NCBI RefSeq assembly: GCF_001447785.1
Contig: NW_015170912.1
Span: forward strand, 352,977 to 416,976
Source: Gekko japonicus
Taxonomy: Eukaryota
Length of the DNA: 64,000 nt
Direction: 5' to 3'
In this document: positions 13,339 through 63,214 of the stretch, piece by piece
Layout: each line of letters opens with the position of its first letter
Numbering within the stretch: the first letter of the stretch is position 1
Program-made: the position numbers and the translations under genes
Notes under the pieces: model-generated
The model's input: only the letters and a program-made list of their open reading frames with translations
Told to the model about the DNA's origin: nothing
The model's database searches: none

Positions 13339-29011
<15,673 letters not shown>

Positions 29012-31211: not shown

Positions 31212-31399
31212 AGCAAAACAGAACTTGAGTCTAGTGGCATCGGAAAAAGTACCAAAACGTTTTCCAGAATAATTTTTTTGCAAGTCAGAGCTCACTGCTG
31301 AGTCACAAAAGCTGACGCTGGAACGCATTTTCTTAGTCTTTAAGATGCTACTGGACTCCTGCTTTATTTTGCAGCTAACACAGCTACCCATCTGGAATT
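31212..31399. mobile_element. Older Penelope-like terminus with inverted ends
   Basis: gagtctagtggca... / ...tgctactggactc...ctaacacagctacccatctggaa, similar to the younger copies. Confidence 0.5.
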
Positions 31400-37542: not shown

Positions 37543-38113
37543 AAAAAAAATACAAAAAATTATAAAGGATCCAGCAATTAGAGTGGCACAAGATACAAAA
37601 AGACAGATATTGCTGTGTATGTTCATCAAATTTTCAATTTTCCAAGTTGTATTTTGTTTTTCAGATACATCAAACAACTCAATAAGAACAAAGTCTTCAG
37701 AAGAGAAGAAGAAGAAGGACGGACCTTCCCGGGCTTTCTGTAGTCCGTTTCGAACAATATCTTTCTCAGATGTCAATTCATGTTGTCTATAGTGTTCTTA
37801 CAATTCCAATCTTGACTGTATATGTGGTGTTTACAAAAGTTCAGAAACAGCTGCTCATAGCTCTATTGTCTATGAGCAGCTGTTTCTGAACTTTTGTAAA
37901 CACCACATATACAGTCAAGATTGGAATTGTAAGAACACTATAGACAACATGAATTGACATCTGAGAAAGATATTGTTCGAAACGGACTACAGAAAGCCCG
38001 GGAAGGTCCGTCCTTCTTCTTCTTCTCTTCTGAAGACTTTGTTCTTATTGAGTTGTTTGATGTATCTGAAAAACAAAATACAACTTGGAAAATTGAAAAT
38101 TTGTCTTTTTGTA
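37543..38113. repeat. Foldback insertion: 234-bp inverted repeat arms (37627-37860 / 37870-38103), 9-nt loop, 15-bp TSD
   Basis: Arms read as exact reverse complements; TSD ccctgtaggatcaga at 37528-37542 and 38114-38128. Confidence 0.92.
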
Positions 38114-39249: not shown

Positions 39250-39780
39250 TCGGGCTCCTGCTTAAAGGAACACGTCCCCAGGCGCCCTTCAGTAGGAATC
39301 GCCAGCATGTATCGTTTCCCTCCCTCCCCCTGTTGTGGCTGCTGTCGCAAGGAGACCAGACTGCGGGTGGCCGAGTGTGTGTGATACGTGTCTAGCCACA
39401 GCGTGCCCCATGGCTGCGCCACCTGCCACAAGCTCTTCCGGCTTCCTCTCTTCTCATAAATAAGCGCACCAAGAGCCGGCTGCTTGTCGACGGCCTCAGC
39501 AGGAGCCAATCAGCGCGCGGCACGGCGGCCTGCCCGGCATGTGCTCTTGTTTGCGTACGTGCGGAGCAGGCGGCTCCCGACAGAGAGGGCGGGGTCCCAG
39601 CCAGGGTGGCTCTTCTTCATCTGGCTCGTGCAAGATGCAGTGGCGGTAGAGAGGCAGTGCTGAAAACTTCCATCCCACCACGACTTTTCCCTCGGTGAAA
39701 ACCAGGAGGATGCTGTTACTGTTAGATGGCCACGCAGAGGTAAGTCTTGGGGCGCTTTTAACGTGGGCGTTCTGGAGGTT
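39250..39780 (+). promoter_or_regulatory. ANKRD37 CpG-island promoter with hypoxia-response elements
   Basis: RCGTG cores at 39271-39275 (-), 39386-39390, 39401-39405, 39557-39561 and 39761-39765; CCAAT 39506-39510; GC box 39587-39592. ANKRD37 is an established HIF-1 target in mammals. Confidence 0.75.
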
Positions 39781-42700
39781 GAATTGGAGGTGCTAGCAAA
39801 AGTTCTTGCACTACTGCTTAAGCGCTTGTGATCGATGAGAGAAATAACAAAATTCAGGTAGGTCGCCGTGTTGGGATCTGAAGAAGCGCGGATAAAACTT
39901 TGTTGGTCTTAAGGGTGCCACTGGACTCGAACTTTAAGTAGTTAAATTGTTATCTTGTAGCAAACTGCTGGTCGTTTCCTTTAAGATTGTGCCTTGTTAC
40001 TGCTCGGGGACCTTGCAGTGCTCCCTCTAAGCTGTGGAGTCTTGTGAGGAAACATTCTGCTTTGTGAGTTACTGGCATTAAAGTTGCGAGGGAGCGATTT
40101 GGCTGCTGCATAAATTAGTGTGCTCTGGAATCGTCTTTCCTGAGCGAAGACAAAAAATGTGTGAGCCGGAGACTAAAAAAACTGTGAGCTAGCTCACACT
40201 AACTCAGCTTAGAGGGAACACTGGGACCTTGGTTCCCGTTAGTGTGGTTGCGGTGAATCAAGCTTTAGGTACAAGCTGTACATTGCAATTGAATAAAACG
40301 TTGGTCTTAAAGGTGCCACTGGACGCAGTCTTTGTTCTGCTGCTTCAGACCAACGCGGCTGCACACCTGAACCTATTTCAATTGTTTCTCCACCTTCCTT
40401 CCAGTCGGAGAGCCTGAGCCACCTGCTCCAAGCAGGGACTGAAGTGAACATACCTGCCGATGCTCTGGGCCAGGACCCGGCTCACCTGGCTGCTCATGGA
40501 GGACAGGCTTTCTTACTGCTTTGGCAACTGCAGACAGGAGCCAATTTGAACCAACAGGTACAAGTCATGCTTTCTGTTTCTTGAGCAGTCTAACTCTAGC
40601 GAGGCTACCTTGTCTTTTATGGAGTGGAAGGATTTATATATATCTTTTATGGATTGGAAGGATTTATATATATATATATATATACTTGTATATCAACTGG
40701 CTACTGAGGTGGAATAGATCACCATTGGCTGGCACTGCAAATGAGATAGGTAAATGCAAAGGTAGGTCTGCTGTTGTAGGTTTTACAAGCTCTGCTCCCT
40801 TTGTGCTGAATAGGTAGAACTTTGGATTCTCATTTACTAGTTAACAAAGAGGACAGCAAGTGGCAGTGTTTTGTTATAGGAACTGACTGGTTTGCTAGTC
40901 ACATGGAAGGCAACAAGCCCAAATTATTCAGGTTCTTAGGGAGTGGGTTTTCACTCACAATAGAGGAAGGCCAGGAAAAATGCTTAAAATCTCACTTTTC
41001 AGTCTATCCAGATGACTTTTCATGAATGCATGGGTTCCCCTGTTTAATTGTAAGAAGCAGCTAGTTTTGTAATTGTAAGAAGAGCCAGTTTGGTGTAGTG
41101 GTTAAGTGTGTGGACTAATCTGGGAGAACCGGGTTTGATTCCCCACTCCTCTACTTGCAGCTGCTGGATGACCCTGGGCAAGCCATAGTTCTGACAAGAG
41201 CTGCTTGAAACGGCAGTTCTTGAAAGAGCTCTCTCAGCCCCACCTACCTCACAGGGTGTCTTTTTTTGGGGGGAGTTTGTAAGCCGCTCTGAGACTCCGA
41301 GTGAAGAAAGGGAAAGGTTCCCTTGCTCGAAAGCCAGTTGAATCCGACTCTAGGGTTGCAGTGCTTATCTCCGTTTCAAAGCCAAAGAGCCAGCGCTGTC
41401 TGAAGACGTTTCCGTGGTCATGTGGCCGTCATGACTAAACACCAAGGTGTTCGGAACGCTGTTACCTTCCCACGGAAGTGTTACCTATTTATCTACTTGC
41501 AATTTCTTGCTTTCGAACTGCTAGGTTCTGAGTGACTGAGATTACAAAATGCAACATCTTTGTTTAGGATTGGCTTGGGGAAGCACCCATTCACAAAGCC
41601 GCTAAAGTTGGGAGTTTGGAGTGTCTCACTTTACTTGTTGCCAGTCATGCCACCATCGAGTAAGTACCCCTTCTGCCATACTGATCACTTGTTGTTGTTG
41701 TTCAGTCGCACAGTCAAGTCCGACTCTTCGCAACCCCATGGACCAGATCAGTACTGATCACTAGCAGAAAATTTATCCAAGCAACATTGTAGTTTACACT
41801 GTAAAACTGTAAAACTGTGATTGAAGTATGTTTCAACATAGGCTTACCAAGTGGCGGCAGGGGATCCGCCGCGGGGACAGCGATATGTGTTGCACCGCCG
41901 TCGCCAGGATGTGACACAATGCGTCGCTCTGGCAATGGGGCTGTTTGGAGTCCCGTTGCCAGAGCGACACGTAGTGTCACATCCTGGCGACGGCGGGTGC
42001 AACGCGTGTCGCAGTCCCCGCGGCAGGGATCCTGTGAAAACATGCGGATCCCCCGCCGCCACTTGGTAAGCCTATTTCAACAAAATATGTGGTTATCTCA
42101 GTTCCCTCTAATACATATACAACTTTGAACTTCAGTTTACTTTACAAAAAGATCACTCACAAACTGGTAAAAGGAACTTCCAGATTGTTTTGGTTTTAAA
42201 AAAAAAAAAGGAACTTCAGACCTTGATTCAATTAAAACAAATGACTTTTACGCTTCCCAATGGGACTTGGAGGTGTCTGATTTGCCTCATTGATTTCAAC
42301 ATGATTTAGGCATGACTAATTGGATCACAGTGATGTAACCTGATCCTTCTCAGCCTTTGATATCAGGGAGCTGGCTGCCCACCCTTGTTGAGTGATGTAA
42401 CTTGATCCTGTTGCATTCAATACTATTTGCTCCCAAATGAGTGCACACAGTACTGCAAAGTTTGAGTCCAGTGGCACCTTTAACACCAACAAGGTTTTAT
42501 TCAAGCTATAAGCTTTTGTGTGCGAGCACACGTCTTCAGATAGTGAAACAGAAATCGGCTTCACTGTATCCTGAAGAACTGTGCTTGCACATGAAAGCTC
42601 ATGCCTTGAATAAAACTCTGATCTTAAAGGTGCCACTGGACTCAAACTTTGTTCTACTGCTTCAGATGAACACGGCTACCCACCTGGCACAGTACTGCAG

Positions 42701-44180
42701 TTTTTGTTTACGTACATTGCTCGACTTAACATCAGCAGTCAAATGTATTGTGTTGTCTTCATTTTGTATCCTAGCTTGCGCAATAAGAAGGGACAGACTG
42801 CGGAAGACCTGGCCCTGGCTTTTGGATTTTGGGAATGTGCTCAGTTCCTCAAGACAGTGAAAGAGACTCAGAATAGGAAAGCCATCAAACAAGTTCGGGA
42901 TTCCCTCAGTAACAAGAATGGCTTGCTGAGGGAGGCAACGACAAAACAAAAACGAGCAAGTGAAAGCAGAAGACCCATAAGCAAGAAGACAATGAGATCA
43001 AATGGTACGGTGTTTAGCCAGATGCTTTAAAAAGACATCTACTCCAAACTGCAGCTCCCAGTCAGAGGCTACTTCGGCATGCAGAAAGTGTGTCGATTAA
43101 CCTTTCCCTGTTTCGTGTTCTATTGGGGTATAGATCAATGAAAGTTGCTATTTCTAGAAATATTTCTAGCCTACTCAAAAGCCATTCACAATAGAATGTC
43201 CTTTTTTTGTATTTGTGTGTGTGTGTGTATGTATGCCTAGAAGTCATGGTTGACTTCTGGCGACTCCTAGTGGGGCTTGGACATTTCAGAGAGGTGGCTT
43301 GCTATTGCCCATCTCTGGGTCCTGGCCCTGCTACTCCTTGGAGGTCTCCTATCCAAGTATTTTGCAGGGTCGGCCTTGCTTAGCTTCCAAGATTGGGCTT
43401 GCCTGGGCTATCCAGGTCAGGGCAGTAGAAGTGCTTCTTGTTGGTGCTGTTGGTTGTCATCTAGTATCACCACCCTTGCTCCTTAAATACAACATACATT
43501 AAGCACTGCCCTCTCCAATCACCTTTCAAGGGTACCTAAGGCATACAGTTGTAGAATACAGTGCTTTTGAGAACAGTCAGGACACCTAAGAGTTAAGGAA
43601 TAGGGCTTCTTCCAGGACATACCAAGGTTCTCATGCATCTTCCTAAGCCAAAGCACCTCTTATTAATGTCAGCCTTTGCTGCCGCCTTCCATGATAACAT
43701 TTTGAGAACACGGAGCAAGACATTGTTTTGAAAATGTATAGCAACACTGTTTGTTAAACCAGATGCAAATACACTGTACCTGATTGTATCCCACTCACTT
43801 TCATTGGGTTGATATGTTCCACTAACAACTGTCATATTAATTTGCTGCCAAATGAATAGAGGAAGGAAGACCACCTCACTGAAAAGTGATTTCCCCTTCT
43901 GTGATGTGCCATACAGCAATAGGGATTTATGTGCTGGTTAAATTACTGGATGGGAGAATTCCAGGGTCATTGTGCGGAGGAAGGCAATGGTAAACCTCTT
44001 TCATTAGTCTCTTGCCATGAAAACCCTATAGGGTCATCAAAAGTTGGCTGCCACTTGATGGCACTTTTACACGCACACACAATGTTAAGTCAGTCATCCT
44101 GTGCATTGGAGGAAAAAAATAAACGCTTTATCTGCATTTAAACAGATGCAACGTTTCTGATGTCATGTGAAAGTACATGA
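39710..44180 (+). CDS. ANKRD37: Ankyrin repeat domain-containing protein 37, 179 aa: join(39710..39739,40405..40557,41568..41659,42775..43004,44146..44180)
   Basis: MLLLLDGHAE/SESLSHLLQAGTEVNIPADALGQDPAHLAAHGGQAFLLLWQLQTGANLNQQ/DWLGEAPIHKAAKVGSLECLTLLVASHATI/DLRNKKGQTAEDLALAFGFWECAQFLKTVK matches recalled ANKRD37. GT-AG junctions in phase. The last short exon (DATFLMSCEST*) is less certain. Confidence 0.93.
40016..40223. mobile_element. hAT MITE in ANKRD37 intron 1
   Basis: TIRs and perfect 8-bp TSD ggaccttg at 40008-40015 and 40224-40231. Confidence 0.9.
41083..41306 (+). mobile_element. Squam3-like SINE
   Basis: Family head and core as in 34103-34390. Confidence 0.85.
41311..41527 (-). 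mobile_element. Sauria SINE, head truncated
   Basis: Matches the tail-side approximately 215 bp of 783-1138. Confidence 0.88.
41690..41751 (-). mobile_element. Very short BovB 3' end
   Basis: (GTT)n tail plus cagtcgcacagtc..gtccgactcttcg; 11-bp TSD tactgatcact at 41679-41689 and 41752-41762. Confidence 0.88.
41839..42074. mobile_element. Palindromic CpG-rich hAT-type MITE
   Basis: TIR taggcttaccaagtggcggc...gccgccacttggtaagccta; 8-bp TSD tttcaaca at 41831-41838 and 42075-42082. Confidence 0.9.
42458..42687. mobile_element. Penelope-like element: inverted termini with two hammerhead motifs
   Basis: 12-bp TSD cacagtactgca at 42446-42457 and 42688-42699; hammerhead-like motifs at 42506-42543 (-) and 42566-42604 (+). 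Confidence 0.8.
42566..42604 (+). ncRNA. Minimal type I hammerhead ribozyme motif (Penelope-associated)
   Basis: GTATC-CTGAAGA-A-CTGTG CTTG CACAT-GAAA-GCT-C-ATGC: CUGANGA and GAAA boxes, stem II, palindromic AGCU stem III and stem I GUAU/AUGC. Activity is untested. Confidence 0.6.
43214..43424 (-). mobile_element. 5S rRNA-derived SINE
   Basis: Similar to 9065-9272, with a (TG)n tail on +. Confidence 0.78.

Positions 44181-46625: not shown

Positions 46626-63214
<16,589 letters not shown>

What the first reader, a model, noticed from the sequence alone, without database searches (positions are those of the whole stretch)
42446..42699. Back-to-back minimal hammerhead ribozymes in a TSD-flanked Penelope-like insertion (ANKRD37 intron 3)
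Seen: a 230-bp insert with a 12-bp TSD, made of two inverted termini. Each carries N4-CUGAAGA-(N)-stem II-(G/A)AAA-GCU-H-N4. The plus copy (42566-42604, sense to ANKRD37 pre-mRNA) keeps CUGAAGA, GAAA and a CUC site. The minus copy has stem I CUAU/AUAG where other copies have GUAU/AUAC, an apparent compensatory change. Known: Penelope-like element pLTRs encode minimal type I hammerheads whose palindromic stem III is thought to work as a dimer. Inference: this is a non-autonomous, ribozyme-bearing PLE derivative placed about 85 nt upstream of an exon acceptor of a hypoxia-induced gene.
Basis: partly seen in the sequence, partly recalled or inferred. Interest (0 to 1): 0.7.

Follow-up and report, generated by a model that had tools for sequence, protein, structure and literature searches.

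The report
Decayed Penelope stub, two broken hammerheads
This 230-base mirror-image insert in an intron of the likely ANKRD37 gene is one of very many short leftovers of a known jumping gene; both of its self-cutting RNA motifs carry damaging changes and are predicted to be locked in one long hairpin, so it is likely an ordinary, inert insertion.

Summary
The insert (42458-42687), its 12-bp direct repeat and two opposed minimal-hammerhead motifs are real. They are the 3' ends (pLTR) of an abundant Penelope-like retrotransposon: longer copies run RT, Zn-finger-like linker, GIY-YIG, then this pLTR (Neptune-type). Inverted truncated arm + arm with a 30-40-bp tail + TSD is the published PLE insertion layout. 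Junctions differ from copy to copy, so this is most likely a short one-off insertion, not a non-autonomous family. Neither ribozyme is intact: the plus copy has an extra C next to the core and has lost G10.1-C11.1; the minus copy has G12A. The 'compensatory' CUAU/AUAG is a 2-nt deletion plus an unrelated C>G. Stem covariation exists only between subfamilies. In the pre-mRNA the arms are predicted to pair into one hairpin, 40 kcal/mol below the hammerhead fold, and the intron is spliced normally in RNA reads. The scan noted the same arrangement before in other genomes. Ordinary; low interest.

The parts
42446..42457 (.). left target-site duplication (12 bp; last 2 nt also fit the element's left end)
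42458..42552 (-). inverted, 5'-truncated pLTR arm without tail (reads on the minus strand from about 18 nt upstream of C3 to about +90)
42506..42543 (-). minimal type I hammerhead motif, damaged: G12A at 42517, 2-nt deletion at the outer end of stem I, C>G at 42506; site CUU (H17 at 42510)
   Evidence: sequence
42549..42556 (.). head-to-head junction of the two arms (exact point uncertain by a few nt)
42553..42687 (+). direct, 5'-truncated pLTR arm including the tail
42566..42604 (+). minimal type I hammerhead motif, damaged: extra C at 42570, G10.1>C (42579) and C11.1>U (42592), stem I G-U; CUGAAGA 42571-42577, GAAA 42593-42596, would-be cut after 42600
   Evidence: sequence
42652..42687 (+). 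one-sided 'tail' (about 36 nt) present only on the direct arm
   Evidence: two classes of 3' ends, about +85-90 and +115-120
42688..42699 (.). right target-site duplication
41660..42774 (+). host intron (third intron of the ANKRD37-like gene), GT..AG
   Evidence: 46 reads from 36 starts in run X21, 1 read in X20, none in X22, one contig in X1
42775..43004 (+). downstream host exon (exon 4), spliced on to 44146

Best explanation
The insert is a short, 5'-truncated, two-armed copy of the end of an abundant Neptune-type Penelope-like retrotransposon, likely made in one landing event, and its two damaged hammerheads are predicted to be inert because the arms would pair with each other in the host pre-mRNA. 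Mechanism, inferred: the element's GIY-YIG nuclease nicked both strands about 10-12 bp apart; each 3' end primed reverse transcription on uncut element RNA, one at the far start site (giving the arm with the tail) and one at a site about 30-36 nt further in (giving the inverted arm); both cDNAs stopped just past the ribozyme and were joined head to head; fill-in gave the TSD. Since then each arm has drifted (10 changes in 118 and 10 in 91 positions from the family majority), including CpG decay at the C11.1-G12 dinucleotide that hit one base in each arm. Shown: anatomy, family link to RT and GIY-YIG, variable junctions, lesions, normal splicing of the intron. Predicted: the hairpin. Inferred from published work on another PLE clade: the two priming sites and the uncut template. 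Untested: lack of cleavage.
For: Family link: 25 of 30 loci fetched with the endonuclease-coding stretch carry this arm downstream on the same strand; 14 of 20 RT loci do too (13 of 19 without the locus that gave the query), 3 of 20 have an inverted arm at the 5' break of the body and 2 are partial tandems. Pfam RVT_1 in 5 of 8 ORF pieces (2 above cut-off, best E 2.5e-11), GIY-YIG in 1 of 8 (E 9e-4, below cut-off); atlas best hit 0.97 to clusters with PF01541 in 27-28% of members; linker reads C-x4-C-x2-C, the CX2-5CxxC mark of Neptune/Nematis in PMC8557442. TSD-like repeats of 10-17 bp with at most 1 mismatch in 27 of 49 two-armed inserts versus 4 of 300 random places reaching the same score. 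Two 3'-end classes about 30 nt apart. Among 28 distinct other loci chosen only on the 3' 83 nt, 14 have an adjacent inverted arm and no two share the pair of end points. Only 2 of 84 arms begin within 3 nt of the cut site. Non-CpG core positions diverge 6.0% versus 6.5% in a downstream block and 9.1% over the whole downstream part: little sign of selection on dispersed copies. Hairpin favoured by 39.9 kcal/mol, core bases unpaired with probability 0-0.2; the isolated plus motif folds no better than shuffles (z 0.57).
Against: One of the 25 distinct best whole-length matches (L003 = L007) joins within about 2 nt of the same point and shares the A>C after CUGAAGA and the AAAA core, which could mean a small unit subfamily or a preferred stop site. 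53 of 84 arms begin between -20 and +26, so short stubs are not simple random truncation; part of this is likely an artefact of local alignment and of sister families with other upstream sequence. No intact autonomous copy was found (all long ORFs broken; longest RT-bearing piece 368 aa). The core is slightly better conserved than the full downstream region (6.0% vs 9.1%). The empty site in a relative could not be checked. Folding is equilibrium prediction; co-transcriptional folding or protein help (PMC11167929) was not modelled, although the antisense arm is transcribed first here.
Confidence: 0.85

Rival explanations
1. The 230-bp two-armed unit is a non-autonomous element (retrozyme- or MITE-like) that is itself transcribed and re-inserted by the Neptune protein.
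For: Short two-armed inserts are common (L133, L161, window 47797-48008); L003 has a near-identical junction; pLTR-derived non-autonomous retrozymes are reported in vertebrates including reptiles (bioRxiv 10.64898/2026.07.22.740005).
Against: End points differ in all 14 two-armed loci of the less biased set; only 1 of 25 distinct best matches spans the junction; a continuum of lengths up to RT-bearing bodies with the same inverted arm; retrozymes are head-to-tail tandem repeats with same-strand ribozymes, this is head-to-head.
Confidence: 0.08
2. The insert has been co-opted as an RNA element of the host gene: the long hairpin is edited by ADAR or alters exon 4 splicing, or the plus hammerhead cuts the pre-mRNA under some condition such as hypoxia.
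For: Sense orientation of one motif, 75-87 nt from the acceptor; one contig of run X1 covering 42119-42651 has 6 substitutions, none listed in the 329 nt before the hairpin, 3 of the 4 that can be assigned are A>G, one opposite a C in the predicted helix; 45 of 144 family arms keep all core bases.
Against: Core and stem lesions in this copy; no same-strand partner ribozyme found elsewhere in the gene; normal GT..AG joint and no joint into the insert listed; the A>G changes rest on one contig of a run only guessed to be RNA, may be alleles, and were not seen again in 4 further runs, which barely cover the place. Editing of an inverted repeat would not by itself show function.
Confidence: 0.05
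3. The insert is a DNA-transposon MITE and the hammerhead look is incidental.
For: Long terminal inverted repeats and no coding capacity.
Against: TSD length varies 10-17 bp, arms are asymmetric with a one-sided tail, and the arm is continuous with RT and GIY-YIG coding sequence.
Confidence: 0.01

Closest known systems
Minimal hammerheads (min-HHR) of metazoan Penelope-like elements (Cervera and De la Pena 2014, PMC4209133)
   Same: Type I, short stem I, extra nucleotide between 9 and 10.1, G10.1-C11.1 in the family majority, palindromic 15.2-16.2, no loop 3; the paper reports such motifs in turtle and snakes, mostly as dispersed truncated copies, and pairs 100-700 bp apart on opposite strands.
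   Different: Stem II of this family is 5-6 bp with a palindromic loop; both motifs at this locus have lost defining bases (G12 in one, 10.1-11.1 pair in the other).
EN+ PLE insertions with inverted 5'-truncated pLTR, 30-40-bp tail and TSD (PMC8557442; Adineta Pen2a in PMC3846280)
   Same: Inverted truncated copy at the 5' end, tail at one end only, TSD of about 10 bp, partial tandems, C-terminal GIY-YIG after RT.
   Different: Here the insertion is the shortest form: both arms stop about 15-18 nt upstream of the ribozyme core, with no ORF sequence.
Neptune clade of PLEs
   Same: RT, then CX2-5CxxC linker, then GIY-YIG; hammerhead in the pLTR downstream of the ORF.
   Different: Clade placement was not tested by a tree; Nematis shares the linker; Repbase/Dfam were not available, so the family's existing name is unknown.
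Poseidon element PAc of Anolis (Frangieh et al. 2024, PMC11167929)
   Same: Two RT start sites bounding the tail, both strands cut and extended, uncut RNA as the main template: fits the two 3'-end classes and the lack of ends at the cut site here.
   Different: Other clade; in PAc the ribozyme overlaps the ORF start and needs the protein to cut; nothing of this was assayed for the present family.
Non-LTR retrozymes (PMC7229834; bioRxiv 10.64898/2026.07.22.740005)
   Same: Non-coding, hammerhead-bearing, pLTR-related.
   Different: Retrozymes are head-to-tail tandem repeats with same-strand ribozymes that yield circular RNA; this insert is head-to-head and its ribozymes are on opposite strands.

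Membership tests
EN+ Penelope-like element (Neptune type), truncated copy | terminal sequence continuous with an RT ORF | tested here: met
   14 of 20 RT loci carry the arm downstream on the same strand; RVT_1 in 5 of 8 ORF pieces
EN+ Penelope-like element (Neptune type), truncated copy | C-terminal GIY-YIG endonuclease | tested here: met
   PF01541 E 9e-4, below cut-off, in 1 of 8 pieces; atlas score 0.97; 25 of 30 EN loci linked to the arm
EN+ Penelope-like element (Neptune type), truncated copy | CX2-5CxxC linker between RT and EN | tested here: met
   seen in P0002; definition from PMC8557442 passages
EN+ Penelope-like element (Neptune type), truncated copy | inverted truncated pLTR, one-sided 30-40-bp tail, variable TSD | tested here: met
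EN+ Penelope-like element (Neptune type), truncated copy | RT groups with Neptune in a phylogeny | not tested
   no named PLE reference proteins were in hand
min-HHR (family level) | core CUGANGA / GAAA / UH with stems I and II | tested here: met
   family majority; 45 of 144 arms keep the core, 25 of 144 also the stems
min-HHR (family level) | stem covariation | tested here: met
   22 double-change cells versus 7.9 +/- 2.2 shuffled, 0 of 500 (47 of 50 arms, 3 with large deletions left out); driven by two inherited subfamily changes (U-A to A-U in stem II, 11 rows; A-U to G-C in stem I, 5 rows), so few independent events; pairs with a double change 6 vs 4.3, 61 of 500
min-HHR (this locus) | G12 present | tested here: not met
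   minus copy G12A; plus copy keeps it. G12 is the proposed general base (PMC6257768 passages)
min-HHR (this locus) | G10.1-C11.1 pair and stem I abutting the core | tested here: not met
   plus copy C/U at 10.1/11.1 and an extra C before C3; minus copy keeps both
min-HHR (this locus) | self-cleavage as a dimer | not testable with these tools
   needs an assay; fold predicts sequestration
non-LTR retrozyme | head-to-tail tandem units with same-strand hammerheads | tested here: not met
   arms are inverted, single insert
non-autonomous element amplified as a unit | shared internal junction across copies | tested here: not met
   0 shared end-point pairs among 14 two-armed loci; 1 near match in 25

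The most novel reading that the evidence does not exclude
The roughly 100,000 stubs of this family are a fossil record of how Penelope elements copy themselves in vivo: both target strands prime at two fixed sites about 30 nt apart on uncut RNA, the cDNAs stall in a narrow zone on and just upstream of the ribozyme, and the resulting antisense arm switches the ribozyme off, which would let two-armed copies persist in introns in either orientation while solo sense copies are purged.
Probability: 0.2. Interest if true: 0.45.

Novelty: new member of a known kind. Interest (0 to 1): 0.12.

Why it matters
As a locus it matters little: it is one decayed copy among very many. Its use is as a data point on PLE integration, which is still poorly understood: arm end points across the family can test whether cut or uncut RNA is copied and where reverse transcription starts and stops. 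If the insert did cut or edit the pre-mRNA of a hypoxia-regulated gene it would be a case of ribozyme co-option, but the evidence here points away from that.

Tried and rejected
Rfam scan at E up to 10 gave only hairpin (miRNA-model) matches below gathering score and no hammerhead family; these reflect the long inverted repeat. Pfam found nothing in the first 4 short ORF pieces; longer pieces were needed. The run search listed no holder on record as RNA; raw reads of X20-X22 barely cover the intron with locus-specific reads (most reads over the arms run on into unlike sequence, 54-100%), so no RNA ends at the cut site could be judged; the one 'begin' cluster at 42623 (5 molecules, X21) lies in the part shared by all copies. 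A second lay on X2-X5 neither confirmed nor excluded A>G editing. Sequence look-up of earlier scan findings returned nothing. Literature searches: Penelope+hammerhead+ribozyme 38 papers, 30 listed; Neptune+Penelope-like+gecko 0; Penelope+squamate+hammerhead 1; Penelope+gecko+transposable element 7, none on this family by title or abstract start; the lineage words were my guess from recall, not a tool result. Rejected: compensatory change at the outer stem I pair; DNA-transposon MITE; retrozyme; cis dimer between the two motifs.

Full report
Observation. The stretch 42458-42687 is flanked by an exact 12-bp direct repeat found only at these two places in the window. Its halves are inverted copies of each other (83% over 46 nt, 88% over 41 nt), and the right half carries about 36 extra nt. 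Each half has a hammerhead-like string. The insert lies in an intron that RNA reads join from 41659 to 42775 (46 reads, 36 starts in X21; 1 in X20; 0 in X22; one contig in X1). The host has weak ankyrin hits in exon 2, a further exon at 44146 and a convergent Peptidase_C78 gene nearby; the name ANKRD37 is from my recall of the human gene and its synteny with UFSP2. ANKRD37 as a HIF-1 target is from the abstract of PMC2724271, for human cells.

The family. A search of the own genome gave 4903 first-look candidates, 40 scored. The window itself holds at least six more pieces, two of them in intron 1 of the same gene. In 40 arbitrary 10-kb stretches from 8 large contigs (398 kb) I count 14 insertions by BLAST to one copy and 25 by a profile that also picks up sister families: 35-63 per Mb, of the order of 100,000 in the genome, a rough figure. 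Walking upstream from a longer copy in the window leads into coding sequence. 25 of 30 loci fetched with that stretch carry the finding's arm downstream on the same strand. One frame shows a C-x4-C-x2-C linker and a GIY-YIG-like domain (atlas 0.97, PF01541 in 27-28% of cluster members), another an RT core. Among 20 RT loci, 14 show RT, EN, arm in order; 3 have an inverted arm at the 5' break; 2 are partial tandems. Pfam gives RVT_1 in 5 of 8 pieces and GIY-YIG in 1 of 8. All copies seen are broken. This is an EN+ Penelope-like element of Neptune type by the linker; no tree was built.

Layout of insertions. In 49 two-armed inserts, total length runs from 203 to 1979 bp (the first 26 were selected for likeness to the 254-bp query), and 27 of 49 have a 10-17-bp flanking repeat with at most one mismatch, against 4 of 300 random places. 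Arms end at two fixed places about 30 nt apart: inverted arms near +85 to +90 and direct arms near +115 to +120 from C3. With loci chosen only on the last 83 nt (29 others, 28 distinct), 14 have an adjacent inverted arm and each has its own pair of end points. Only L003 (= L007) of the 25 distinct best whole-length matches joins near the same point. PMC8557442 (passages) describes exactly this: an inverted 5'-truncated copy at the 5' end and a 30-40-bp tail at one end; PMC3846280 (passages) gives an example with a 9-bp TSD; PMC4209133 (parts 1-2 of 4 read) notes min-HHR pairs 100-700 bp apart on opposite strands and motifs in turtle and snakes.

The ribozymes. The family majority over 213 arms is a textbook min-HHR: 4-bp stem I, CUGAAGA, one extra A, G10.1-C11.1 closing a palindromic stem II, GAAA-GCU-H. 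C11.1-G12 is a CpG and has decayed (C 48%, G 68%). 45 of 144 arms keep the whole core and 25 of 144 also the stems. This locus is not among them. Plus copy: extra C before C3, G10.1>C, C11.1>U. Minus copy: G12A; G12 is the proposed general base (PMC6257768 passages). Covariation does exist across the family (22 cells vs 7.9 +/- 2.2 shuffled, 47 of 50 arms aligned), but comes mainly from two inherited subfamily differences, so it speaks for selection on the master elements, not on this copy; a palindromic stem can also covary by DNA repair. Non-CpG core positions diverge 6.0%, a downstream block 6.5%, all downstream positions 9.1%.

How it works now. In the pre-mRNA the antisense arm is made first and is predicted to pair with the sense arm: -130.1 kcal/mol, 39.9 kcal/mol below a fold forced into the hammerhead shape, with core bases almost always paired. 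The two motifs are on opposite strands and no other same-strand motif was found in the gene, so the tandem dimer that min-HHRs are thought to need cannot form in cis. Even intact min-HHR dimers cut weakly in vitro (PMC4209133), and 8 of 9 Xenopus dimers did not cut (bioRxiv 10.64898/2026.07.22.740005, parts 1-3 of 5 read). Splicing across the intron is normal and no joint into the insert is listed. One contig of X1 crosses the cut site and shows 6 substitutions, with at least 3 A>G inside the hairpin; this may be editing or alleles and was not reproduced.

How it arose (inferred). PMC11167929 (parts 1-3 of 4 read) shows for an Anolis Poseidon element that both strands are cut and extended, that RT starts at two sites bounding the tail, and that uncut RNA is the main template. 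The two end classes here fit that, and only 2 of 84 arms begin within 3 nt of the cut site, while 53 of 84 begin between -20 and +26. The clustering may reflect stalling at the ribozyme's hairpin, a nearby RNA start, or alignment limits; I could not separate these.

Novelty and limits. The arrangement and the motif are published; I found no paper on this family, but Repbase/Dfam were not available, and I did not read the supplements of PMC4209133 (reptile motifs) or of the bioRxiv preprint (closed), which may already list it. PMC7229834 was seen as passages. Earlier notes of this scan describe the same arrangement in lizard, shark and fish genomes; they are unchecked and were used as leads only. 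Verdict: an ordinary, decayed insertion of a known kind of element; interest 0.12.

Noticed in passing
window 41838-42075: A second long hairpin insert in the same intron: 32-bp terminal inverted repeats (97%) and nested inner arms of 29 and 48 bp, GC-rich, MITE-like. Not related to the Penelope arm.
   Followed up: no
window 37627-38103: Perfect 234-bp inverted duplication with a 9-nt spacer, 100% complementary, about 1.6 kb upstream of the gene's first exon; a very recent event or an assembly artefact.
   Followed up: no
window 39855-39935 and 40289-40369: Two further fragments of the same Penelope family in intron 1 of the ANKRD37-like gene; neither holds a ribozyme core.
   Followed up: partly
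window 47797-48008, 61776-62178, 19803-19985, 31304-31395: More copies in the window: a 217-bp two-armed stub with a 13-bp TSD, a 405-bp insert whose inverted arm carries body sequence, and single arms.
   Followed up: partly
window 42510, 42530, 42596: A>G differences in one X1 contig inside the predicted hairpin, one at an A opposite C; possible ADAR editing or alleles; not reproduced.
   Followed up: partly
L131:6163-6205, L146:2108-2150, L169:5234-5276, L145:2450-2492: Sister Penelope families with other stem II sequences (GUGAG/CUCAC, GGGAG/CUCCC types) coexist in this genome.
   Followed up: partly
window about 39386-39565: Several ACGTG (HRE-like) words upstream of the first exon, as expected for a HIF target; read by eye, not tested against chance.
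   Followed up: no
L178, L180, L181, L197: Four direct arms begin 241-281 nt upstream of the ribozyme core, a possible second cluster of 5' ends.
   Followed up: no
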